UHGV virus genome: UHGV-1651400
From: a virus
Strand: one strand, 5' to 3'
DNA length: 10,057 nt
Both the position numbers and the translations under genes were made by a program. Of this stretch, positions 1 through 9,621 are shown piece after piece. Numbering within the stretch: position 1 is the first letter of the stretch; the number at the start of each line of letters is the position of its first letter. Under the pieces are notes generated by a model. It searched no databases. It had not been told where the DNA came from and saw nothing but the letters and a program-made list of their open reading frames with translations.

Positions 1-2450
1 ATGCTGGCCTGTCCTCGCACCCATTCTGTGTACCCTGATTCGTTGCCGCTGCGATCCACCAGCTGCGCGCGGTACCAGAAAATCTGCCCAGCCTTAAGGC
101 CCATCTGTTGATATTTGCGCTGCGGGTAAGGCACATCGGCCAGCAGCATCGCATCGTCTTCGGTACCGGTCAGGCTGTACTGAATTTCGGTCTTCAGCGT
201 GTCGTCGGTATTCGCCGGGAATCCCCAGTTCAGCTCGATACCGAATACCACGTTTTCAGAAGCGATAAAGCCAACCGGCTTCGGTGGATTGCCCACTTTA
301 CCAGTAAGATTTACTTCTGGTGATGTCGCCCACACTGATGAAACGTCGCTGGCGTTCACCGCCCTGACGCGGACCAGATAGCGACCAGAGTAGATACCCT
401 GCACTTCAAAGCCGAGAGAAGACGTTCGGGGCACACTAATCCAGTTGCCGCTGTCACGCCGCCATTCCGCCTCGTACGCAACTGCACCCTGAACAGCATC
501 CCAGGCAACGCGCATGGTGGTAATCGCAATGTTCTGGTTAACCGTAGAGTAACTGTCTACGACGATATTTCCTGGTGGAGCCTGAACCCCTGGCGGAATG
601 ACACTGACTGGCCGCTCGTCCAGTCTTGCGCCGGTATCAACAGCGGAATAGATATCAGGGTTGTAAGTCGTCCCGGTGACCTCGAAAGTACCGTCGTTGT
701 TGTCCCGCGTTCCCGTAACACGGAAAAGCGCTATAAACAGATCGTCAGAGTCCACACCCCAGTTACATTCAGCCTCCGGCGTTTCGCTGTAGGGTGTGGT
801 GACAGTGACTGTGTTTCCGTTAACGGCCTGGACCGTTCTGGCCTGAGCTGTGCCTGACGGAAGATTCAAAAACAGCCGGTTCCCGGCCTTCACATCAGCG
901 GCTCGATCGAGGGTTATGTTGCGGCCGTTAACCGCACTCACCCTGCCACCGATAGTTCTTCCGGCCAGCTCGTTAGCTGCCACGCCGATCACCTCACCAA
1001 CGGGGGGAACGTCCATGCCCGTGCTGAAGGTCACCACCTCGCCGATACCGTTAGTGAGCAGCGCCCAGCGCCCCCGCCGGTTTGCCTCTGACTGCCTGGT
1101 GCAGCCGATCGCAGTCATTTCGAGCTGACGATAATCGAAGCGCATGGCCAGATCGTTATCGTAAACAGGCTCAGGCGTGTCTTTATAGTGGTTGGCTGGG
1201 TCTGACCAGTTCACCAGCGCGGCAGTGTTTCGGGTGGTTTCACTCGGATCCGCAAAGGTAAATTTTCCTTCAACAACGCTGGCGTGGTTATAGATGTGCC
1301 ACACATCCCGTGGCATATCAGCCAGGACATACATCTTATTGTCGCCCCAGTACGTCATGCCGCGAAATATACCCGCCAGGTCACGAAGTACGGTCCAGGC
1401 GTCATTACGGTCCTGGATATAAACGTTGCAACGAAAACGAGGCTCCGTCCCGCTGCCGCCCTTGCCGTCTGGTACCAGTTGATCGCAATACTGGGCGATG
1501 CGATAAAGTTCCCATTTGTCTATCTGAGTCGCATCGATTCTTTGACCCAGCCCGAAGCGCTCGTTCAGAATGATGTCGTAATAAATCCAGGCAGGGTTAT
1601 CCGTCCACGCCCATTTAAATACGCCCTCCCATGTACCAGAATAAGTGCGGGTTTCGGGATCATAAGTATCAGGTACACGGATGATTCGCCCTTTCGGATT
1701 GCACACAACCTGAGGAATGCCATTAGGGAACTGCTTTGCGTCAAACTCTACATACAGCAGCGCTGTGTTAACGTAGCGAAGTTTGGCGTCAATAATTTCA
1801 GTAACGGCCACAACGCGCATGGTGTCGACGATATTCACGCTCGTGGAATCCGGCGTGATTCTGCGAACCCGCAACTGCCATCCAGTCGAGGCTTTCGGAA
1901 GATTGACGCGGTGACTGCGCTCATAAAGCGACGTGGTTTTGTCATCAACAGCACCGTTAACCACCGTTTCATACGGCCCGCCATCGACCGACAGATCGAT
2001 AGCATACTCGACGCGGGTGCCGACTTTATCACCGTTGTTTTTCTGGAGTAAAAGAGTTGGCCATCCCAGGCGAATTCGCAGCGCAGAGAGCTGCGTGTTG
2101 GATACCGCCCGAACATACGGTACAGCCTGTTTCAGCTCATATGAAACCTGAAGTTCGTTTTCAATGCCCGGAAAGCCCTGAATGTAATCCTGGTCCTGAG
2201 TACCGGAACGGAACTCGTATTTTACATTATTGAAATTGTAACTTCCGTCGGCGTTCTGGAGAGGGGTGTATGAAGATGAGTCGCCAAGGAAAATATTTTT
2301 ACCATCAAGCCCGCCGGCGAACTCCCCCTCCCCAAGAGCAATCAGCACCTTTGCCCTTGCAATGGACTGAATGCTGTCTGGTGCCTCAACAGGCGTACGG
2401 GTCTGATTGCTGCCACCTTTGCCGCGGCCTTTGATGATTGTCGTCGTCAT
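1..2450 (-). CDS. J: Host specificity protein / central tail fibre J, N-terminal ~816 codons; 3' end lies beyond the left edge of the window
   Basis: Manual minus-strand translation from ATG at 2450..2448 is open to position 1 (MTTTIIKGRGKGGSNQTRTPVEAPDSIQSIARAKVLIALGEGEFAGGLDGKNIFLGD...TEPRFRCNVYIQDRNDAW...WELYRIAQYCDQLVPDG...). These motifs match remembered lambda gpJ (TEPRITCNAY, WALYVIGQYCDQSVPDG). Position immediately downstream of I. Absent from ORF track because no stop occurs inside the window. Confidence 0.88.
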   Translation of the reverse strand, partial: MTTTIIKGRGKGGSNQTRTPVEAPDSIQSIARAKVLIALGEGEFAGGLDGKNIFLGDSSSYTPLQNADGSYNFNNVKYEFRSGTQDQDYIQGFPGIENELQVSYELKQAVPYVRAVSNTQLSALRIRLGWPTLLLQKNNGDKVGTRVEYAIDLSVDGGPYETVVNGAVDDKTTSLYERSHRVNLPKASTGWQLRVRRITPDSTSVNIVDTMRVVAVTEIIDAKLRYVNTALLYVEFDAKQFPNGIPQVVCNPKGRIIRVPDTYDPETRTYSGTWEGVFKWAWTDNPAWIYYDIILNERFGLGQRIDATQIDKWELYRIAQYCDQLVPDGKGGSGTEPRFRCNVYIQDRNDAWTVLRDLAGIFRGMTYWGDNKMYVLADMPRDVWHIYNHASVVEGKFTFADPSETTRNTAALVNWSDPANHYKDTPEPVYDNDLAMRFDYRQLEMTAIGCTRQSEANRRGRWALLTNGIGEVVTFSTGMDVPPVGEVIGVAANELAGRTIGGRVSAVNGRNITLDRAADVKAGNRLFLNLPSGTAQARTVQAVNGNTVTVTTPYSETPEAECNWGVDSDDLFIALFRVTGTRDNNDGTFEVTGTTYNPDIYSAVDTGARLDERPVSVIPPGVQAPPGNIVVDSYSTVNQNIAITTMRVAWDAVQGAVAYEAEWRRDSGNWISVPRTSSLGFEVQGIYSGRYLVRVRAVNASDVSSVWATSPEVNLTGKVGNPPKPVGFIASENVVFGIELNWGFPANTDDTLKTEIQYSLTGTEDDAMLLADVPYPQRKYQQMGLKAGQIFWYRAQLVDRSGNESGYTEWVRGQAS

Positions 2451-2460
2451 ATCGCGTCCA

Positions 2461-2485
2461 TAAAAAAGCCACCGTCAGGTGGCTT
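2461..2485 (-). terminator. Intrinsic-terminator-like hairpin between I and J (minus-strand RNA: GCCACC-UGAC-GGUGGC followed by UUUUUUA)
   Basis: Seen in sequence: plus strand 2466-2485 AAGCCACCGTCAGGTGGCTT preceded by AAAAAA (2462-2467). On the minus-strand transcript this is a GC-rich 6-8 bp stem, 4-nt loop, then a U6 tract ending 11 nt before the J ATG. Confidence 0.5.
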
Positions 2486-2502
2486 GCAGTACGTGGTTTT
2501 GT

Positions 2503-3087
2503 TTATTGCTGATCTTCTGCATAAACCCCGGCGGATATAATGGCGCCGCCAATTTCCCGTTGCCCATAAAGCAGGGGGACGGGATTGCCAGATGCCGTCG
2601 TGTTAACGGGACCACCAAACGCATAGGAGGGTTTGTTATCAGGTTCCTGACGCATTCGCAGACCTGAAACCTGAGGAGAGAGCATTTGCACTACACCGCC
2701 AACGGCCATTGCGGCACCAACGGAAAACATGAGGTTACTTGCTGCGATACTAACTCCCGGCATCCATATGGCAGCAGCGACCAGAGCCGTTCCGAGCAAC
2801 GCCTGGAAAACTCCAGCTCTTTTACTACCCCTTATCACAGGGATTATTCTTAACTCATCACCCGGCCCCAGGAGTTCAAACTCTTCGTGCCCGATATTGC
2901 GACGATCCCGGAAAATAACAAAATCCAGTCCCTTTGCCCGAGCTTCACGCAGATAAGCATCAAAGCCGTCAATGGTGTTAGAAAGCGCCCTGAAAACTTC
3001 GCTGGCGGACGTTAGTGCACGGCGATGTGTCCTGCCAAATCGCTGAGCCATTGAGCCGCTGAGTTTGATAACGGTTTTTCTTTCCAT
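2503..3087 (-). CDS. I: Tail assembly protein I
   Basis: 194-aa ORF. Glycine/alanine-rich hydrophobic C-terminal half (GVFQALLGTALVAAAIW...SVGAAMAVGGVVQMLSPQ) resembles remembered lambda gpI (GGVFQIVLGAAAIAG...LGASMVLGGVAQMLAPK). ATG 3087..3085 overlaps the K stop TAA (3089..3087) by 1 nt. Confidence 0.85.
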   Translation of the reverse strand: MERKTVIKLSGSMAQRFGRTHRRALTSASEVFRALSNTIDGFDAYLREARAKGLDFVIFRDRRNIGHEEFELLGPGDELRIIPVIRGSKRAGVFQALLGTALVAAAIWMPGVSIAASNLMFSVGAAMAVGGVVQMLSPQVSGLRMRQEPDNKPSYAFGGPVNTTASGNPVPLLYGQREIGGAIISAGVYAEDQQ

Positions 3088-3797
3088 TACATCAAATCCT
3101 TATAACGCAGAATTTTGATGGTACGGTCACGGTAATAGCCACCGTAGGGAATACGCTGGCTTAGCTGGCCATACATGTGATGCAGTAGCATGTTGCCATC
3201 AAGCAAAATCCCGGCATGGTTCGGGACGGTGGACTGAACCTGCATGATAACCATGTCACCTGGCTGAGCGGGACCGTCGTACTCACGGAAACCGCATTCC
3301 TGCCAGTTATCCATATAGAGGTTTTCACCCTGCTCCCACCAGTGGCGATCTACGCTGTAGTTGGGCAGTTCAATGCCGTGCTCGATGCGGAAATAGTCCA
3401 TGATGAGAGACCAGCAGTCTGCATACCCGAGTACAAACTGGCGCCCTGTGAGGGGACGGTCTCCGCGAGGCATGACGGTGCGAATGTCGCCCTCCGGCCA
3501 CGATGCAATAATCCAGGGCAGTTCCGTGGCATCACACATCAGCATGTCGAGCTCGCTCGGCTGAGTTGTTGCCCCGTCGCCGGGATGGCTGTGGACGATC
3601 GCCACCACAGTGCCCTGCTCTTCGGCGGCCGCATAATCCTCAGGATTAAGTTCAAATTGCTCAGTCGGCGACTCAGCATTATTTTTGCAGGGGATGTATT
3701 TCTCCACCCGCCCCTTCTGAATAACCACGCCACAGCACTCCTCGGGGAAGGATGCGGCGGCATGGGCCAGAATGGCGCTAACTGTTTTGTCGCGCAT
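3087..3797 (-). CDS. K: Tail assembly protein K (N-terminal MPN/JAMM-like domain plus C-terminal NlpC/P60-like cysteine peptidase domain)
   Basis: 236-aa ORF. SAILAHA, VHSHPGDG (JAMM-like HxH), YADCWSL (Cys) and PNHAGILL...LLHHM (His) match remembered lambda gpK. Shine-Dalgarno GAGAGGA 6-7 nt upstream of ATG 3797. Confidence 0.88.
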   Translation of the reverse strand: MRDKTVSAILAHAAASFPEECCGVVIQKGRVEKYIPCKNNAESPTEQFELNPEDYAAAEEQGTVVAIVHSHPGDGATTQPSELDMLMCDATELPWIIASWPEGDIRTVMPRGDRPLTGRQFVLGYADCWSLIMDYFRIEHGIELPNYSVDRHWWEQGENLYMDNWQECGFREYDGPAQPGDMVIMQVQSTVPNHAGILLDGNMLLHHMYGQLSQRIPYGGYYRDRTIKILRYKDLM

Positions 3798-3799
3798 GA

Positions 3800-4558
3800 T
3801 TATCCTCTCAGAAGTGAAGCGCCTGGGAACCCGCCATAATCCAGCTGTTCATTCTCTCCGAAGCGAGGTTTACAGCCCGTTGACAGCAATCCGGAGCAAA
3901 CATCCTGTGAAGGATCGTCCACCCGATTGCCGTCTTTATCGAACCAGCCGTTTTGCCCGGCGTAGGTGCAGCCGTTCCCGGTTTTGTACCAGCCCCGCAT
4001 GCACCACGTGCACATTGGCTGAATTTGCCGGGTCGGAATGAGTTGCCCTCGCAAATCGGCTGGACTTGAAAGCTCAAACTCTACGGTTTCATCGTCTGAC
4101 CCTGATTTACGGTCGATGTAATAAACCTGTTTGCGCTCCTCGTTGGGATTCGCAGTCGGGTTCCCGCCAGGAAAATTTCTTGCGTCCAGGTAGTGAGCGA
4201 AGGTGTCATGGATGATCACCTTTGCTTTAGCCATCCCCTGAAACCTGCGGCACAGCGCGCCAATCGTACCGCTGATGTTTGCAACAGTGAGTGACGGCCG
4301 TGAACTCTGGCCGTCACTGCTTACAGATATGCCGGTCAGTTCATACGGCCACGCGCCATACTCCTGCCCCTGCCACCACACCGACTTCGGCTCAAGTTTT
4401 GACTCGTCGCCGCCTGCGGCGATGATTTCCGCCTCGGTATGCGGGATTGTCTCGTTGTGAAAGCGAAGAATACCCGCACCGAACGCTGAGCCGTCCACCT
4501 CGATCAGGCGGACGCGCTTACCCGGTTCCAGTTTCTGGACATCAGATGAAATACTCAT
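3800..4558 (-). CDS. L: Tail tip assembly protein L (cysteine-rich, Fe-S-cluster type)
   Basis: ORF track gives 3800..4642, but similarity to lambda gpL begins at the internal ATG 4558..4556 (MSISSDVQKLEPGKRVRLIEVD...RPSLTVANISG...CTWCMRGW...C...C...C). That ATG overlaps the M stop as ATGA. C-terminal cluster of 5 Cys. Confidence 0.85.
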   Translation of the reverse strand: MSISSDVQKLEPGKRVRLIEVDGSAFGAGILRFHNETIPHTEAEIIAAGGDESKLEPKSVWWQGQEYGAWPYELTGISVSSDGQSSRPSLTVANISGTIGALCRRFQGMAKAKVIIHDTFAHYLDARNFPGGNPTANPNEERKQVYYIDRKSGSDDETVEFELSSPADLRGQLIPTRQIQPMCTWCMRGWYKTGNGCTYAGQNGWFDKDGNRVDDPSQDVCSGLLSTGCKPRFGENEQLDYGGFPGASLLRG

Positions 4559-4893
4559 GGATGGTATGCCTGTATGAATGTGCTGCTGAGGGTGTATTTT
4601 TTGTTGCCGTGGGTAGATATCTGGAAGGATTCCGCGCGCCATAAACCTGAAGGATCAAGCGGTGGCTTCCAGATAAATGACTTCCACCCTGCATGTCTGT
4701 TCAGAAAGTTTTTAATGGCCTGAATGTAAGCCTCGTCGCCGGTAAAGCTCACGCTCCACTGAGGTGTTACCGGGTTGATGCCGTCCCCGGCCACCTGTGT
4801 ATAGCCATCGCCAAACTGCGCCTTTCGGGTACGAAAACTTGTATCAACCTGAGAGGCAACCTTTGGGCACCAGCTGAAGGTTTCGACTGCCAT
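4555..4893 (-). CDS. M: Minor tail protein M
   Basis: FGDGYTQVA and GWKSFIWKPP match remembered lambda gpM (FGDGYSQRA, GGWKSFLWTPP). The track start at 4920 is a GTG; the ATG at 4893..4891 has Shine-Dalgarno AAGGGAG about 7 nt upstream and lies 2 nt after the H stop TAA (4898..4896), giving a lambda-M-sized product of 112 aa. Confidence 0.82.
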   Translation of the reverse strand: MAVETFSWCPKVASQVDTSFRTRKAQFGDGYTQVAGDGINPVTPQWSVSFTGDEAYIQAIKNFLNRHAGWKSFIWKPPLDPSGLWRAESFQISTHGNKKYTLSSTFIQAYHP

Positions 4894-4895
4894 GG

Positions 4896-7800
4896 TTAAA
4901 CTCCCTTGATTAATCGCCACAGAGGCGAGCCCGGCATGCTGGCCTGCTCGTTAATAACGCCAGTGATGGCATCTTTCAATTGTCTGCCAGCGGCACCGGC
5001 TGTTCCCTGACTGGCCGCCTGGGATGATCCGCCCTGAATATTGATATCGCCAAAGTTAACTGAAGGCACGCCACCAGAAACCTGCGGCATCCCCACTGCG
5101 CGAACGGCAAGATCACCATTAGGTGCCCGCGTGAGGGGCATGATTGCTTCAGGACCTGCCTCGCCGAAAATCCCTGCGCCTTTAGCAAAAGCAAACAGTT
5201 GAGGTGTCTGAAAAACGCCATTGCTGTAAGCGCTCAGGGACGGAGAGTCGTAAACATTACCCTTTGCATTAAAGGTAAAGTTCGCGCCAGCATTCTGAAT
5301 AGCGGTACCGCTGCTGGCGGTTGCGGCTGACGAGGCACCAAAACTGAACAGTGATCCAATTGAGCTGACGCCATTAGCAACAGCCATGTTCACCAGAACG
5401 TTCTGGATAATCTTCAGTACGCTCACGCCCCAGTCCTTCCAGCTGTCAACGTTGCCATTGAGCATGTCGGTGATCGTGGTGACCGCGCCACCCATGGCCT
5501 GCTTCATGCCGTCAGCGGCCATGGAAGAATAATCAGTAGCTTCGTCCACCCAGTTCGCATAACCCTCAGACAGTCCCGTCATCCAGTCGTCACGCTGCGC
5601 ATCAGAAGCTGCGTAATATCCCTCCTGGTCGCGCAGGCGCTCTTCGAGGTAGCGCTTATTAAGTGCCAGCCCCTGCTGATAGAACGTCTCGTCGATTTCA
5701 CCAGCCTGACGCTGGCGGAGAAGATCGGTATTCTTCTGCTCGAACTCCTTACGCAGATTGAACTGCTCCTGAAGTCTTTCACGGAACCTGGTTCCCTGCC
5801 CGTATCCCAGCAGTTGCGCTTCATTGGCTGCGCGGGCGCTGGCGTTACTGTCGGCAAGGTTGGCTTCGTAATTTCGCAGTTGCTCACGTAATTTAACCTG
5901 GTCAATCAGCGTAGCATTCTGCAATACCGTCTTTTTCTGGGCTTCTGTCAGAGAAGCAAGTTCGCCCTGGCTGACCTGGTATTTAACCTTCGCCAGTTCA
6001 GTATTCTGGCCTTGCAGGGCAATCTGCTCTTTTTGCTGTTTGATCAGCTTGTCATAGGCATCAGCTGTTTTTTCCGCCTCGGATTTCCCGCCCTTATGGC
6101 GGCTTGAGTCACGAATAGCTTGCAACTGCCTGGCTGACTCAACTTCCATGCTGACATACTTCTCACGCCAACCAGCAGGGAGATTAAGGTCAGATGCATC
6201 GAATTCCGCCTGCTTGCGGGTTTTGTCCAATCCCTTAAGACCGGACAACTCAAGCTGTCGCTGCGCCTTGTCTATAGCTTGCTGCTGCTTATTATCAAGT
6301 GCAGGAAGTACAGGCCCTGCATATTTTGGTGGGGACACTGCTGTAGACTGTCTGGAAACCTTGTTCAGACGGTCATACATCTCTGTAAGAGAACTTACGG
6401 CGCCAGCCATTTCTACTGTTTTATTTATAGCCTGATCAGTTATGTCGTTTATTAACTGTTGTGTTTGCTTTCTTTTATTGAGCATTTGCTCAAGTCGGCC
6501 TTCTTCAACCGCAAGTTCTGAAGCAAACTCTGCTGCTTTCTCAACCGCATCGTTATACAGCCATGTTCCCTCTGAAGCAGAATTGGCTGCTAATTTTGCG
6601 TTATAAAGTTGATTGGATAATTCAGCAACTTTCTGCTTCTGCTGTTCAATCGCACTATTTTGAGCATCCAGTGAAATATTCGCCTGTCCAAGGTTGGCGG
6701 ATATCTGCGTCTGAGACATTGATTTCAGATTATCTCGTACCTGCTCGATTGTGTCCGCATATTGGATTGCAGATTCCCTGGCTTGTTCTTGGCGTTGATA
6801 CATCATGTACCACGCCCCAGCACCCAACATTAAAATTCCTGGCAAACCACCAACTAACGACAAAAGCCCCGTAGCGCCAGACTTGAATAAATTCATTACC
6901 GATGTTGATCGGTTGAGTGCTTCTTGCGACGCTGATACTGCTTTATTTGACTGAACGAGAGTGGCATTGGCGGCTATCATTTCGCGCCGTTTGGCAATAG
7001 AATTTTGTGTAGCTGTCGCTTCTGCATTTGTGTTTTTTGCAAGTTCCAACTCGGATAGCGAGAGCTGATAAGCACGCTCGGCAGCAATCGCATCTGCTGC
7101 CGCCTTTCGTTGTGATTGGGTAGCAGATTCAGCCCTTGCAGATGCGAGCGCAATTTCGTTCTTTCTGGCATCTATTAATTGCGCCGTTTGGTTCCCAAGA
7201 TCGCCAAACATCCCTCCAAGATAGCGAGCTCCACCTATTGCAGCCAAAGCTCCGGCAGCCGTAGCCACAGTGTCGATATTGTCAGAAACTGTATTCAATA
7301 CAGCAACAAGAGCACTTGTCGCACCAGTAGCTTCATTAGCTCCACCTACCCATGCCATGAAAGCATTTTCGACTTTCGTCGTGGCAGCAGAAACGGTCTG
7401 CGGCATTGCCTCAAATTCACCACGCATAGTGCCAAGTTGACTTATCAGGGCCGGGACAACTTTATCTGCGGTTAGCATCCCCTGATCGGCCATTGCCTTC
7501 AGATCTTTACGAGCTACACCCATCCCAGCGGCCAGCGCACGGATAACTCGATCACCGTTTTCGTTAACAGAGTTGAATTCCTCGCCCCGCAGAACGCCCT
7601 GAGCTAATGCCTGACTAAACTGGGTGATAACAGAACTTGCCTCTGCCGTGCTGGCGCCGGATAGCTTTAGTCCAGTAGAAATGGCCTCGGTTACATCCAG
7701 AACTTGCTGCGAACTGTATCCGTATTCACGCATTGATGCGGCGGAACGCGCAAAAAGACTCGCATTATCAGAGAAGGCGGTTCCGGTTCGTTGGCTAATA

Positions 7801-8162
7801 TCCATCAGCGCCCGCTGAGACTCCGTGAAATCATCAGACGATTGGGAAGCCTGCTTTAGCCTGGCATTAACAGAGCTCCATTCATCGGCCAGCGATATAA
7901 GATGACCAGTCGCAAATGCTCCAGCAAATGCACCTGCCATTCCCAGCGCTGAGGCCTTCGCGGTGTTTATTTGACTAGTTACCTCAGCTAAGGCACGCTG
8001 AGTTTCACGCGAAGCTGCGGCCGCTTGGCGTCCTCCAGTCTGCATTACCCGGTAATAGTCATTCCCCATTCTTGAAGCACGAGAAATTTCAGACTGAAAT
8101 GACTGAGAGTTTGCAGATATTTTGATGATCAGTTCGCGCAACGTAGCCATATTTTCACCCAT
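4896..8162 (-). CDS. H: Tail tape measure protein (lambda gpH analogue), 1088 aa
   Basis: Single very long ORF sitting between the G/T chaperone pair and M. Ala/Gln/Glu-rich, predicted helical/coiled-coil, with an internal hydrophobic segment (LLSLVGGLPGILMLGAGAWYMMY) and a Gly-rich C-terminal region. An alternative start at ATG 8150..8148 is preceded by GGTGA; the first ATG at 8162 abuts a U8 tract. Confidence 0.9.
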   Translation of the reverse strand: MGENMATLRELIIKISANSQSFQSEISRASRMGNDYYRVMQTGGRQAAAASRETQRALAEVTSQINTAKASALGMAGAFAGAFATGHLISLADEWSSVNARLKQASQSSDDFTESQRALMDISQRTGTAFSDNASLFARSAASMREYGYSSQQVLDVTEAISTGLKLSGASTAEASSVITQFSQALAQGVLRGEEFNSVNENGDRVIRALAAGMGVARKDLKAMADQGMLTADKVVPALISQLGTMRGEFEAMPQTVSAATTKVENAFMAWVGGANEATGATSALVAVLNTVSDNIDTVATAAGALAAIGGARYLGGMFGDLGNQTAQLIDARKNEIALASARAESATQSQRKAAADAIAAERAYQLSLSELELAKNTNAEATATQNSIAKRREMIAANATLVQSNKAVSASQEALNRSTSVMNLFKSGATGLLSLVGGLPGILMLGAGAWYMMYQRQEQARESAIQYADTIEQVRDNLKSMSQTQISANLGQANISLDAQNSAIEQQKQKVAELSNQLYNAKLAANSASEGTWLYNDAVEKAAEFASELAVEEGRLEQMLNKRKQTQQLINDITDQAINKTVEMAGAVSSLTEMYDRLNKVSRQSTAVSPPKYAGPVLPALDNKQQQAIDKAQRQLELSGLKGLDKTRKQAEFDASDLNLPAGWREKYVSMEVESARQLQAIRDSSRHKGGKSEAEKTADAYDKLIKQQKEQIALQGQNTELAKVKYQVSQGELASLTEAQKKTVLQNATLIDQVKLREQLRNYEANLADSNASARAANEAQLLGYGQGTRFRERLQEQFNLRKEFEQKNTDLLRQRQAGEIDETFYQQGLALNKRYLEERLRDQEGYYAASDAQRDDWMTGLSEGYANWVDEATDYSSMAADGMKQAMGGAVTTITDMLNGNVDSWKDWGVSVLKIIQNVLVNMAVANGVSSIGSLFSFGASSAATASSGTAIQNAGANFTFNAKGNVYDSPSLSAYSNGVFQTPQLFAFAKGAGIFGEAGPEAIMPLTRAPNGDLAVRAVGMPQVSGGVPSVNFGDINIQGGSSQAASQGTAGAAGRQLKDAITGVINEQASMPGSPLWRLIKGV

Positions 8163-8186
8163 AAAAAAAACCCGCTTGATAGCGGG
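8163..8186 (-). terminator. Intrinsic terminator downstream of the small membrane-protein ORF (minus-strand RNA: CCCGCU-AUCA-AGCGGG followed by UUUUUUUU)
   Basis: Seen in sequence: plus strand 8163-8170 AAAAAAAA, 8171-8176 CCCGCT, loop 8177-8180 TGAT, 8181-8186 AGCGGG. On the minus strand this is a perfect 6-bp GC-rich stem followed directly by eight U, then the H ATG. Confidence 0.65.
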
Positions 8187-8193
8187 TCGTGAG

Positions 8194-8382
8194 TTATAAA
8201 CTGTCTTTTCTTTTGTGAGCGACTTGTATTAATAAATCTATTTGCGCATCTTGTTTTTTATTTATCTCTTTAAGGGCTTCAACTTGTTCATTTGCCCTTG
8301 TGCTAAACCGTATTACATAAAAAATCACAATTAGATTTATCAACCAGCCGAATATTCCAAACACTACTACCAGTGGTTCCAT
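8194..8382 (-). CDS. Hypothetical small single-pass membrane protein (62 aa), candidate moron
   Basis: ATG 8382..8380 is preceded by a strong Shine-Dalgarno (AAAAGGAGG, 4-nt spacer). Product MEPLVVVFGIFGWLINLIVIFYVIRFSTRANEQVEALKEINKKQDAQIDLLIQVAHKRKDSL has an N-terminal hydrophobic helix and a charged amphipathic C-terminus. DNA is visibly AT-rich relative to flanking tail genes and is followed by a terminator. No homolog recognised from memory. Confidence 0.55.
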   Translation of the reverse strand: MEPLVVVFGIFGWLINLIVIFYVIRFSTRANEQVEALKEINKKQDAQIDLLIQVAHKRKDSL

Positions 8383-8439
8383 AACGCCTCCTTTTCTTAA
8401 GGAAAGAGCGTATCGCCACATTGATGACATGTGAAGCAA

Positions 8440-8718
8440 TTATTGTGTCGCAGCTGTTAGCGCCGCTTCAAGCCCTGCAAACGGGTCATTCGGTTCTGAT
8501 TGCTCCTCACCACCCCAGCGCAGGATCGCATCGTCCAGCGGTACTTTTGCCCCCTGCGAACCGTAGATGGCAGAGACGATCTGGGCGGCCTGAATGTCAC
8601 CGCGAATATCGCCAACCGGACTTTGCCTGTCGTACTCAATCCACATCAGAAGCTCGCTTGCCGTCATATTCTGCCGAAGCTCTGAGAGCGTGCGCCCCAT
8701 CCGGAGCGCAAGCGACAT
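8440..8718 (-). CDS. T: Tail assembly protein T domain, expected to be expressed as a G-T fusion via -1 frameshift
   Basis: -1 frame relative to G. Product (MSLALRMGRTLSELRQNMTASELLMWIEYDRQSPVGDIRGDIQAAQI...) has the character of the phage minor-tail-protein T family. No Shine-Dalgarno before ATG 8718. The T frame is open upstream to a TGA at 8781..8779, so it overlaps the last ~17 codons of G. Confidence 0.78.
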   Translation of the reverse strand: MSLALRMGRTLSELRQNMTASELLMWIEYDRQSPVGDIRGDIQAAQIVSAIYGSQGAKVPLDDAILRWGGEEQSEPNDPFAGLEAALTAATQ

Positions 8719-8726
8719 CAGAAACT

Positions 8727-9110
8727 TTACGCCGGGGGTTGAGACTTTTCCCGCGCTTCGTCCGCGTTGTTGATCAGGTCAAGCGCCTGTTTGAGCAGGC
8801 GTGAATGGACGGGGCCGTAGATTTCACGCACCTGCTCTTCTTCGTCTACGCTGAATACCGGTTGCTTATCGGTGTCGCACAGGACGTCAATGAAGAGCAC
8901 CACGTCAGCGCAAAGATTACGGTGTGCCTTTTCCGATACCGACACATTTTCATCATCAGCACCCGCTTTCACCACCTCCTGCCAGCGCAGCCAGGCTTCT
9001 CCAGACGGCTCACGGAGAACCACTTTGACGCCTTCCCACTCAGGAACGGCGACCATCTTATGACGAAATCCCGACATCTTAGCCAGGGCGAGATTTTTAA
9101 TATTCTTCAT
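8727..9110 (-). CDS. G: Tail assembly chaperone (lambda gpG analogue)
   Basis: 127-aa acidic ORF directly downstream of the major tail protein gene and overlapped at its 3' end by the -1 frame T ORF. Shine-Dalgarno GAGAGG about 5 nt before ATG 9110. Assignment is positional and architectural; no sequence similarity to lambda gpG recognised. Confidence 0.65.
   Translation of the reverse strand: MKNIKNLALAKMSGFRHKMVAVPEWEGVKVVLREPSGEAWLRWQEVVKAGADDENVSVSEKAHRNLCADVVLFIDVLCDTDKQPVFSVDEEEQVREIYGPVHSRLLKQALDLINNADEAREKSQPPA
8745..8752 (-). other. Candidate programmed -1 ribosomal frameshift site (GGGAAAAG on the minus strand) within the G/T overlap
   Basis: Minus strand 8756->8727 reads GCG CGG GAA AAG TCT CAA CCC CCG GCG TAA in the G frame; the -1 (T) frame reads GCG GGA AAA GTC. 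The register differs from lambda's canonical G GGA AAG, so the exact slip position is uncertain; a CCCCC run at 8738-8734 is an alternative. Confidence 0.4.
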
Positions 9111-9118
9111 GCGACCTC

Positions 9119-9562
9119 TCAGGAGCCAGACTCGATGTTTTCAGGCTTACCTTTCAGGCGCAGGGAGAACGTTGCCGCCACTACGCCGTTGGTACCTGAA
9201 GACCAGGTGTGCTGGCGGATTTCAGCCAGGAACTTAAAGCCCTTGCCGGACGGGAAGATAACCTGGAAAGCGTAGGTCGTATCGTTGTCATAGGCCTCAC
9301 GCAAGGCGTCCTGCGCCGGATTCTTGTAGAAGTTGCCGGACAGAGAGATTTCTGACGGAGAAGGCAGGCCGTTGATGTTCTCCTGCTCGGTAGAGCAAAG
9401 TGTTGTTACGTCGATATCCTGCTTCTGACCACCGGTGAACTGAATTTCTTTGATGGTGCAACTCAGATCGAGGAAGGTTGCGGAATCCATCGTTTCTTTG
9501 GTAGCTGGCAGGGAGGAAATAAGGATCTTCGTCAGCTGCGATTTTTCATAAAGTGCAGACAT
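9119..9562 (-). CDS. Major tail (tube) protein, short form without a C-terminal Ig-like extension
   Basis: 147-aa ORF immediately upstream of the G/T pair. Strong Shine-Dalgarno (CAGGAGA, ~6 nt spacer). Not recognisably similar to lambda gpV from memory and markedly shorter; the call rests on position and size. Confidence 0.7.
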   Translation of the reverse strand: MSALYEKSQLTKILISSLPATKETMDSATFLDLSCTIKEIQFTGGQKQDIDVTTLCSTEQENINGLPSPSEISLSGNFYKNPAQDALREAYDNDTTYAFQVIFPSGKGFKFLAEIRQHTWSSGTNGVVAATFSLRLKGKPENIESGS

Positions 9563-9570
9563 AGCTGTCT

Positions 9571-9603
9571 CCTGGAAAAAGAAAACCCGCCATCAGGCGG
9601 GTT
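9571..9603 (-). terminator. Terminator-like or attenuator hairpin upstream of the major tail gene (minus-strand RNA: AACCCGCC-UGAU-GGCGGGUU followed by UUCUUUUUCC)
   Basis: Seen in sequence: plus strand 9584-9591 AACCCGCC, loop ATCA, 9596-9603 GGCGGGTT. On the minus strand the 8-bp stem is followed by a U-rich tract, then the major-tail Shine-Dalgarno and ATG. Confidence 0.45.
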
Positions 9604-9621
9604 CGTTGGGTGAATTAATTG

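What the first reader, a model, noticed from the sequence alone, without database searches (positions are those of the whole stretch)
8163..8439. AT-rich moron-like insertion between T and the tape measure gene, encoding a small membrane protein
In lambda, T is followed directly by H. Here about 280 bp of visibly AT-rich DNA sits between them, carrying a 62-aa ORF with a strong Shine-Dalgarno (AAAAGGAGG), a predicted N-terminal transmembrane helix and a charged amphipathic C-terminus, and ending in a textbook intrinsic terminator (6-bp GC stem plus U8). Composition shift, own translation signals and own terminator are the classic signature of a moron. The architecture (one TM helix plus short coiled-coil-like tail) loosely resembles small envelope-stress or superinfection-exclusion membrane proteins, but I recognise no homolog.
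Basis: partly seen in the sequence, partly recalled or inferred. Interest (0 to 1): 0.68.

Follow-up and report, generated by a model that had tools for sequence, protein, structure and literature searches.

The report
HK97 gene 15 moron (known)

Summary
On the minus strand, between the T stop codon (8440-8442) and the tape measure gene, lies a 36% GC segment; the flanks are 51-56% GC. It carries AAAAGGAGG, a 62-aa ORF (8382-8194) with one transmembrane helix, and a hairpin plus eight-T terminator (8188-8163).

It is not novel. The DNA is 96.8% identical to phage HK97, and the protein matches HK97 Gp15 at 58 of 62 residues. GenBank labels Gp15 "moron product". It belongs to Pfam family YebO. 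Published work shows Gp15 is expressed from the prophage, sits in the inner membrane and blocks genome entry of HK97 and HK75.

Relatives confirm an insertion: HK022 has a 19-bp T-to-H gap and lambda's T and H overlap. Diverged copies in Citrobacter, Raoultella and Klebsiella prophages occupy the same junction and are under strong purifying selection.

Corrections:
- A homolog does exist.
- The tape measure gene more likely starts at 8150, not 8162.
- The promoter is only a weak consensus match.

In passing, all 79 analysable viral contigs with this T gene carry some AT-rich cassette at this junction. There are at least seven cargo types, all small envelope proteins, including a Cor homolog.

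Verdict: already known, low interest.

The parts
8440..8442 (-). Stop codon (TAA) of tail assembly gene T. This is the left boundary of the insert.
   Evidence: T ORF 8718-8440 matches PF06223 Phage_tail_T. Relatives without gene 15 stop aligning to the window at 8444-8446.
8407..8435 (-). Candidate sigma-70 promoter TTCACA-17-TACGCT (8 of 12 matches). Inferred only.
   Evidence: A relaxed scan found it, but it falls below the standard scan threshold, which found none. The same position in the Citrobacter copy reads TTCACA-17-TACGAT, and the Raoultella copy has GTGACA-17-TAGGAT (alignment). Expression from the HK97 prophage is reported in PMC3594210.
8387..8395 (-). Shine-Dalgarno AAAAGGAGG, four bases upstream of the ATG.
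   Evidence: Read directly from the sequence. GGAGG or GGGGG is conserved in diverged copies.
8194..8382 (-). Gene 15 ortholog: a 62-aa YebO-family single-pass inner-membrane protein (superinfection exclusion protein Gp15).
   Evidence: 58 of 62 residues identical to HK97 Gp15. PF13974 YebO scores 40.2 bits against a cutoff of 27. phrog_5031 at E 2.5e-28. Purifying selection. An identical allele occurs in IMG/VR contig L017.
8311..8373 (-). Codons for the transmembrane helix (residues 4-24, LVVVFGIFGWLINLIVIFYVI).
   Evidence: Hydropathy peak of 2.57. Helical in the AlphaFold2 model.
8215..8265 (-). Codons for the tail motif specific to the phage clade, INKKQDAQIDLLIQVAH (residues 40-56).
   Evidence: Invariant or nearly so in 20 phage-type homologs. 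It differs from E. coli YebO at the same positions.
8163..8188 (-). Intrinsic terminator: hairpin 8188-8169 plus an eight-T run at 8170-8163. It ends 12 bases before the tape measure start.
   Evidence: HK97 annotates a putative terminator here. Diverged copies keep a hairpin plus U-run with different stem sequences.
8148..8150 (-). Most likely start codon of the tape measure gene (4896-8150), preceded by GGTGA. This is the right boundary of the insert.
   Evidence: ATGGCnAC is conserved in all aligned relatives, whereas the upstream ATG at 8162 is not. HK97's annotated H start corresponds to 8150.

Best explanation
The segment is the HK97-type gene 15 moron, a self-contained cassette of weak promoter, strong ribosome-binding site, 62-codon gene and intrinsic terminator. 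It is inserted exactly between the stop codon of tail chaperone gene T and the ribosome-binding site of the tape measure gene. In a lysogen, where the late operon is silent, the cassette makes a single-pass inner-membrane protein. The positive-inside rule predicts the N-terminus outside and the helical charged tail in the cytoplasm. This protein stops superinfecting phages with an HK97-type tail from passing their DNA across the inner membrane. It acts after adsorption, at the step where the ejected tape measure protein engages the membrane and PtsG. During lytic growth, antiterminated late transcription reads through the terminator, so the tape measure and distal tail genes are still expressed.

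Shown here: the anatomy, orthology, family membership, insertion status, conservation and selection.
Taken from the literature on HK97 Gp15: expression from the prophage, membrane location, the block to genome entry and its dependence on the tail region.
Inferred: that this allele, with four conservative substitutions, behaves the same way; the promoter position; the topology; and read-through by antitermination.
For: - Identity: DNA 8100-8500 is 96.8% identical to HK97 and to HK75, HK633, mEpX1 and others. The ORF is annotated 'Gp15, moron product' and is followed by 'terminator, putative'.
- Protein: 58 of 62 residues identical. The differences are M14L, L23V, L24I and Q57K, written HK97 to window.
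- Family: Pfam YebO is above its gathering score. RefSeq names the prophage copies 'YebO family protein'. Identity to K-12 YebO is 38% over residues 15-59.
- Composition: GC is 36% against 51-56% in the flanks, here and in every diverged copy.
- Insertion status: HK022 has 19 bp between gp14 and the tape measure gene, and lambda's T and H overlap.
- Position: copies 72-83% identical in Citrobacter, Raoultella and Klebsiella prophages always lie between a Phage_tail_T gene and an HK97-type tape measure gene.
- Coding and structure: dN/dS well below 1. Transmembrane helix and all-helical model. Terminator hairpins are conserved in structure but not in sequence.
[quoted passage not shown] Exclusion is lost when the tail region is swapped with HK022's. 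YebO itself has no effect (PMC3594210). [quoted passage not shown] A review describes the action as being on the tape measure-PtsG complex (PMC12939059). HK97 needs LamB, FkpA and PtsG, and its tape measure protein interacts with PtsG (bioRxiv 10.1101/2025.12.01.691526).
Against: - No experiment exists for this particular allele or for this mosaic phage. Its distal tape measure half and tail tip genes are like Enterobacter phage LAU1 rather than HK97.
- No promoter reaches the standard consensus threshold. The candidate has only 3 of 6 matches in the -10 hexamer.
- The primary papers (Cumby 2012, Cumby 2015, Juhala 2000) are not in the held library, so functional statements come from the authors' own commentary and from later papers that cite them.
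- The molecular mechanism of Gp15 is described there as unknown.
- PADLOC and NCBIfam have no model for it.
Confidence: 0.9

Rival explanations
1. The protein does the as yet unknown housekeeping job of chromosomal YebO, for example an envelope or stress role next to mgrB. It would benefit the lysogen in that way rather than by excluding phages.
For: It is a Pfam YebO family member. It shares the transmembrane helix and the R-x-S-x-R-x-N-E-Q motif with K-12 YebO. K-12 yebO lies beside mgrB and is annotated as uncharacterized.
Against: The phage clade has its own invariant tail motif, INKKQDAQIDLLIQ, and lacks YebO's C-terminal 30 residues. The literature reports that overexpressing or deleting YebO has no effect on HK97, whereas Gp15 excludes it. 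The gene is always tied to a phage tail module.
Confidence: 0.05
2. The segment is mainly a regulatory spacer whose terminator lowers tape measure and distal tail gene expression relative to the upstream genes. On this view the ORF is incidental or plays a role in tail assembly.
For: The terminator ends 12 bases before the tape measure start. Similar terminators sit between other late genes at 9604-9583 and 2485-2466 and in HK97. Six of the seven alternative cargo types at this junction also end in a terminator just before the tape measure gene.
Against: The ORF is under strong purifying selection. Relatives with an almost identical T gene replace it with unrelated genes, and HK022 and lambda have nothing there, so it cannot be needed for assembly. 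Every cargo is an envelope protein, not a virion or chaperone protein.
Confidence: 0.03
3. The ORF is a chance open frame in AT-rich intergenic DNA.
For: It is short and its DNA is AT-rich. No NCBIfam, PADLOC or PDB match was found.
Against: Pfam and PHROG matches. 32 homologs in the protein database. Synonymous sites are near saturation while the protein is conserved. The Shine-Dalgarno sequence is conserved.
Confidence: 0.01

Closest known systems
Phage HK97 gene 15 / Gp15 (AAF31105), the archetypal moron and a superinfection exclusion protein (Juhala et al. 2000; Cumby et al. 2012)
   Same: Same position between gene 14 (T) and H. Same length of 62 aa, with 94% protein identity and 96.8% DNA identity. 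Identical Shine-Dalgarno core, identical terminator and the same low GC.
   Different: Four conservative substitutions (M14L, L23V, L24I, Q57K, written HK97 to window). The surrounding phage is a mosaic: window 1-6095 is 96.8% identical to Enterobacter phage LAU1, which lacks gene 15. Its major tail protein also lacks HK97's C-terminal Ig-like domain.
E. coli YebO (b1825) and Pfam PF13974
   Same: N-terminal transmembrane helix followed by R-x-S-x-R-x-N-E-Q and a helical tail. 38% identity over 48 residues.
   Different: YebO is 95 aa and chromosomal, next to mgrB. Its tail sequence differs, and it is reported not to affect HK97.
Cor (phages HK022, phi80, N15), an outer-membrane-acting exclusion lipoprotein
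   Same: A small prophage-expressed envelope protein that excludes related phages. A Cor homolog occupies this very junction in six related viral contigs.
   Different: Unrelated in sequence. It is a lipoprotein that inactivates the FhuA receptor, whereas Gp15 leaves receptors functional and acts at the inner membrane.
P22 SieA, TP-J34 Ltp and Tuc2009 Sie2009 (membrane proteins that block injection)
   Same: They work alike: prophage-expressed membrane proteins that block DNA entry after adsorption. Escape from Ltp maps to the tape measure protein.
   Different: No sequence relationship, different sizes and anchors, and different hosts.

Membership tests
Moron (as defined by Juhala/Hendrix) | Extra DNA between two genes that are adjacent in related phages. 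| tested here: met
   HK022 has a 19-bp gap between gp14 and the tape measure gene, and lambda's T and H overlap by 8 bp. The window has 289 bp between the T stop and the tape measure ATG.
Moron (as defined by Juhala/Hendrix) | Nucleotide composition differs from the neighbouring genes. | tested here: met
   36.3-36.5% GC against 51% and 55.5% in the 1-kb flanks, 4.3 SD below other windows.
Moron (as defined by Juhala/Hendrix) | Own terminator. | tested here: met
   Hairpin 8188-8169 plus eight T. Structure is conserved with different stem sequences in diverged copies.
Moron (as defined by Juhala/Hendrix) | Own promoter. | tested here: inconclusive
   The standard scan found none. A weak TTCACA-17-TACGCT at 8435-8407 is conserved in position in the Citrobacter copy. 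No transcript data are available here.
Moron (as defined by Juhala/Hendrix) | Expressed from the repressed prophage. | not testable with these tools
   Reported for HK97 Gp15 in PMC3594210, but not measured for this sequence.
YebO family (Pfam PF13974) | Score above the Pfam gathering threshold. | tested here: met
   40.2 bits against a cutoff of 27, E 3.9e-10, residues 14-58.
YebO family (Pfam PF13974) | N-terminal transmembrane helix followed by a conserved basic and polar motif. | tested here: met
   Hydropathy 2.57. R25, S27, R29 and N31 are invariant across phage copies and K-12 YebO.
HK97 Gp15 superinfection exclusion proteins | Close sequence orthology and the same genomic position. | tested here: met
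   94% identity. Located between T and the tape measure gene, as in HK97.
HK97 Gp15 superinfection exclusion proteins | Blocks genome entry of HK97-type phages without blocking adsorption. | not testable with these tools
   Known only from the HK97 literature.
Catalogued anti-phage defence systems (PADLOC) | Match to a PADLOC model. | tested here: not met
   No family at E <= 0.01. Gp15 is simply not in that library.

The most novel reading that the evidence does not exclude
The gene itself is known. What may not be described is that, in phages carrying this T gene, the junction between T and the tape measure gene is never empty. It behaves as an exchangeable slot for one small AT-rich cassette of the form 'ribosome-binding site, small envelope protein, terminator'. 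At least seven unrelated cargo types occur. Two are proven exclusion proteins (Gp15 and Cor) and five are uncharacterised: a two-helix zinc-ribbon membrane protein, a signal-peptide protein, two lipoproteins and a reverse-oriented tail-anchored protein. These five could be new exclusion proteins that act on DNA injection. Gp15 is also found only with one N-terminal allele class of the tape measure protein (13 of 13), whereas the other cargoes are shuffled across two other classes. That linkage could reflect the specificity of exclusion, or it could simply reflect physical linkage in a clonal group.
Probability: 0.35. Interest if true: 0.45.

Novelty: already known. Interest (0 to 1): 0.1.

Why it matters
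For the finding itself there is little at stake. It re-identifies the textbook moron, HK97 gene 15, in a mosaic HK97/LAU1-like prophage or phage. It is, however, a good positive control for the first-stage reader, who recovered moron status, membrane location and even the exclusion function from raw sequence alone. The side observation could matter more. One fixed junction in the tail operon hosts many alternative small envelope-protein cassettes, which offers a cheap way to find new superinfection exclusion proteins and to map which tail components they recognise.

Tried and rejected
- The primary papers could not be read: PMC3430355 and PMID 25532427 are not held. Function was taken from the authors' commentary and from citing papers.
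- A full-text search for 'YebO' returned only unrelated hits, mostly surnames.
- These searches for gp15 gave no match: NCBIfam, PADLOC and PDB sequences (only noise at E about 0.5). Rfam on the whole window also found nothing.
- The genome-contig scan with the gp15 alignment found only one species-representative genome, Klebsiella spallanzanii, with the same context. The gene is accessory and sporadic, so this gave no wider phylogeny.
- No fold search was run. The model is a single helix and matches would be meaningless.
- I considered whether the ORF could start at the upstream TTG (81-aa ORF 8439-8194). I rejected this because the Shine-Dalgarno sequence and the conserved MEPL start lie at 8382.
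- I considered 8162 as the tape measure start and rejected it in favour of 8150.
- dN/dS between the window and HK97 alleles is about 1, but it rests on only 5 differences and is not interpretable.
- A search for literature on a moron hotspot at this junction found nothing specific. That is absence of evidence only, within an open-access library.

Full report
**1. What is in the sequence**

All genes in this part of the window run on the minus strand.
- ORF 9110-8727 is a Phage_TAC_1 chaperone, the lambda G equivalent.
- ORF 8718-8440 is Phage_tail_T.
- ORF 8162/8150-4896 is a 1084-1088-aa tape measure protein.

Between the T stop codon (TAA, 8442-8440) and the tape measure gene lie three features:
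- AAAAGGAGG at 8395-8387.
- An ATG at 8382 opening a 62-codon frame that ends at 8194.
- A hairpin at 8188-8169 followed by eight T at 8170-8163.

The hairpin folds at -14.7 kcal/mol, z = -3.6 against shuffles.

The segment 8163-8439 is 36.5% GC and the ORF is 32.3%. The tape measure gene is 50.7% and G/T 55.6%. The segment lies 4.3 SD below all other 277-bp windows.

The protein has a hydrophobic stretch at residues 4-24, with a Kyte-Doolittle peak of 2.57. Its tail has 8 basic and 6 acidic residues. AlphaFold2 with 20 homologs predicts one continuous helix over residues 3-61, pLDDT 82.5. E2 precedes the helix and R25 and R29 follow it, so the positive-inside rule predicts the N-terminus outside and the C-terminus inside. 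That topology is an inference.

**2. What it is**

A blastn search of 8100-8500 against the phage collection gives 18 full-length hits at 96.5-96.8%. All are HK97-like coliphages: HK97, HK75, HK633, HK106, HK446, HK544, mEp234 and mEpX1.
- In the HK97 record the ORF is gene 15, 'Gp15, moron product', followed by 'terminator, putative'.
- The two proteins differ at 4 of 62 positions: M14L, L23V, L24I and Q57K, written HK97 to window.
- The terminator and the start of the tape measure gene are identical base for base.
- An identical allele is present in IMG/VR contig L017.
- Pfam places the protein in PF13974 YebO, 40.2 bits against a cutoff of 27.
- RefSeq calls the copies in six E. coli prophages 'YebO family protein'.
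- PHROGs has it as phrog_5031.
- Against K-12 YebO (b1825, next to mgrB) it is 38% identical over residues 15-59.

**3. Is it really an insertion, and a real gene?**

HK022 has 19 bp between gp14 and its tape measure gene, and lambda's T and H overlap.

Relatives with nearly the same G/T genes but no gene 15 are Enterobacter phage LAU1 and the E. coli ET5 and ECONIH5 prophages. On the T side they stop aligning with the window at 8444-8446. They resume only at 8138-8175, at about 68% identity, inside the tape measure gene.

Copies of the gene that are 72-83% identical at protein level occur in Citrobacter, Raoultella and Klebsiella prophages. They always lie between a Phage_tail_T gene and a tape measure gene with the HK97_TLTM domain. 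These copies are also 34-36% GC in flanks of 47-54%.

Comparing them with the window, about 26 of 36 synonymous sites differ but only 12-17 of 135 non-synonymous sites. Where it can be estimated, dN/dS is 0.03-0.17 for the distant pairs and 0.31 for the closer Raoultella/Klebsiella pair.

The Shine-Dalgarno sequence and the hairpin-plus-U-run are kept, while the stem sequences differ: ACCCGCT/AGCGGGT, CCUCGC/GCGGGG and CCCUGC/GCAGGG.

The alignment also shows that the conserved tape measure start is ATGGCnAC at 8150, as annotated in HK97, and not the ATG at 8162.

**4. How it works**

The authors' commentary (PMC3594210) makes the following points:
- Gene 15 of HK97 was the first element called a moron.
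- Gp15 is expressed from the prophage and inserts into the inner membrane.
[quoted passage not shown] - Homologs are the enterobacterial YebO proteins, similar at the N-terminus and diverged at the C-terminus.
- Overexpressing or deleting YebO does not affect HK97.

Later papers add more:
- HK97 needs LamB, FkpA and PtsG, and its tape measure protein interacts with PtsG.
- A review describes Gp15 as acting on the tape measure-PtsG complex (PMC12939059).

My alignment agrees with neofunctionalisation. The phage clade has an invariant tail motif, INKKQDAQIDLLIQ(V/I)AH, where YebO reads LLDQQKRQNALLRRLCE, and it lacks YebO's last ~30 residues.

I therefore take the mechanism to be prophage-expressed, membrane-level blocking of tape-measure-mediated DNA entry. 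Antiterminated late transcription would read through the terminator during lytic growth. That last step follows from established knowledge of lambdoid late operons and is not tested here.

The weak point is the promoter. The standard scan finds none. A relaxed scan gives TTCACA-17-TACGCT at 8435-8407. It is matched in position by TTCACA-17-TACGAT in Citrobacter and by GTGACA-17-TAGGAT in Raoultella.

**5. Rivals**

- A YebO-like housekeeping role is unlikely, given the distinct tail motif and the reported lack of effect of YebO.
- A purely regulatory spacer or an assembly role is unlikely. The ORF is under selection, yet it is replaced by unrelated genes in phages with the same T gene.
- A chance ORF is excluded by the conservation pattern.

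**6. Context and things noticed**

The window is a mosaic. Positions 1-6095 (J, I, K, L, M and the distal 60% of the tape measure gene) are 96.8% identical to Enterobacter phage LAU1 and similar to Aeromonas phage AsXd-1. Positions 6600-9089 are 92.5% identical to HK97.

I surveyed 80 IMG/VR contigs whose T protein is at least 95% identical to the window's. In all 79 analysable contigs, the gap from the T stop to the tape measure ATG is at least 276 bp. The gap sequences fall into eight clusters, with GC between 33% and 44% except for the insertion-sequence-disrupted copy (50%):
- A 111-aa protein with two transmembrane helices and a zinc ribbon (27 contigs).
- Gp15 (12 contigs plus the window).
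- A ~98-aa signal-peptide protein (12 contigs).
- A 113-aa lipoprotein (10 contigs).
- A 121-aa lipoprotein (10 contigs). LAU1's annotated 55-aa ORF at this junction hits the same PHROG family (phrog_27124), at profile positions 57-109 of 110, and so is probably a fragment of this type.
- A 78-aa lipoprotein that matches phrog_1119, 'Cor superinfection exclusion protein', at E 2e-30 (6 contigs).
- One copy of that Cor type split by an insertion sequence.
- One reverse-oriented 145-aa tail-anchored protein.

All forward-oriented types end in a hairpin plus T-run 10-20 bases before the tape measure start.

Gp15 occurs only with its own allele class of the first 300 tape measure residues (13 of 13). 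The other cargoes are distributed over two other classes.

I found no open-access paper describing this slot. That is not proof of novelty, and mosaic moron positions are a well-known concept.

**7. Verdict**

The novelty rating is 'already known': this is the archetype of its class, and its function has been published since 2012. Interest is 0.1. The only reading with some novelty is the cassette-slot pattern described in section 6.

Noticed in passing
window 8151-8439; loci L016-L095, L002, L003, L004: In all 79 analysable viral contigs with a T protein at least 95% identical to the window's, the junction between T and the tape measure gene holds an AT-rich cassette. At least seven unrelated cargo types occur, all small predicted envelope proteins. 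One is a Cor superinfection exclusion homolog (phrog_1119). Five have no known function.
   Followed up: partly
window 7263-8162 (first 300 codons of the tape measure gene) against L016-L095: Gp15 cassettes are found only with one allele class of the tape measure N-terminal 300 residues (13 of 13). Other cargo types are shuffled over two other allele classes. This may be plain linkage, or it may relate to the specificity of exclusion.
   Followed up: partly
window 8148-8162: The longest tape measure ORF starts at the ATG at 8162, immediately after the terminator's T-run. The start conserved among relatives and annotated in HK97 is the ATG at 8150, preceded by GGTGA.
   Followed up: yes
window 1-6095 against 6600-9089: The window is a mosaic. 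J, I, K, L, M and the distal tape measure gene are 96.8% identical to Enterobacter phage LAU1 (and similar to Aeromonas phage AsXd-1). The proximal tape measure gene, gene 15, T and G are 92.5% identical to HK97. The recombination joint lies inside the tape measure gene at about 6100-6600.
   Followed up: partly
window 9119-9562: The major tail protein is only 147 aa. About 342 bp encoding HK97 gp12's C-terminal Ig-like domain are absent (HK97 locus L001 2491-2832 has no match). RefSeq annotates the same short form in E. coli prophages as 'tail tube protein, incomplete'.
   Followed up: no
window 8745-8753 (minus strand CGGGAAAAG): The T frame is -1 relative to G. The likely slip site lies just before the G stop codon, as in the HK97 gp13/gp14 frameshift annotated in GenBank. 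With the zero frame reading CGG GAA AAG, the heptamer is not a canonical X XXY YYZ.
   Followed up: no
window 9583-9604 and 2466-2485 (minus strand): Two further strong intrinsic-terminator-like hairpins with T-runs lie between late genes: one before the major tail gene and one between I and J. Terminators inside this late operon are therefore not confined to the moron.
   Followed up: no
L069 (IMG/VR 2872117924_000003), junction between T and the tape measure gene: A Cor-type cassette at this junction is interrupted by an insertion sequence encoding a 322-aa transposase.
   Followed up: no
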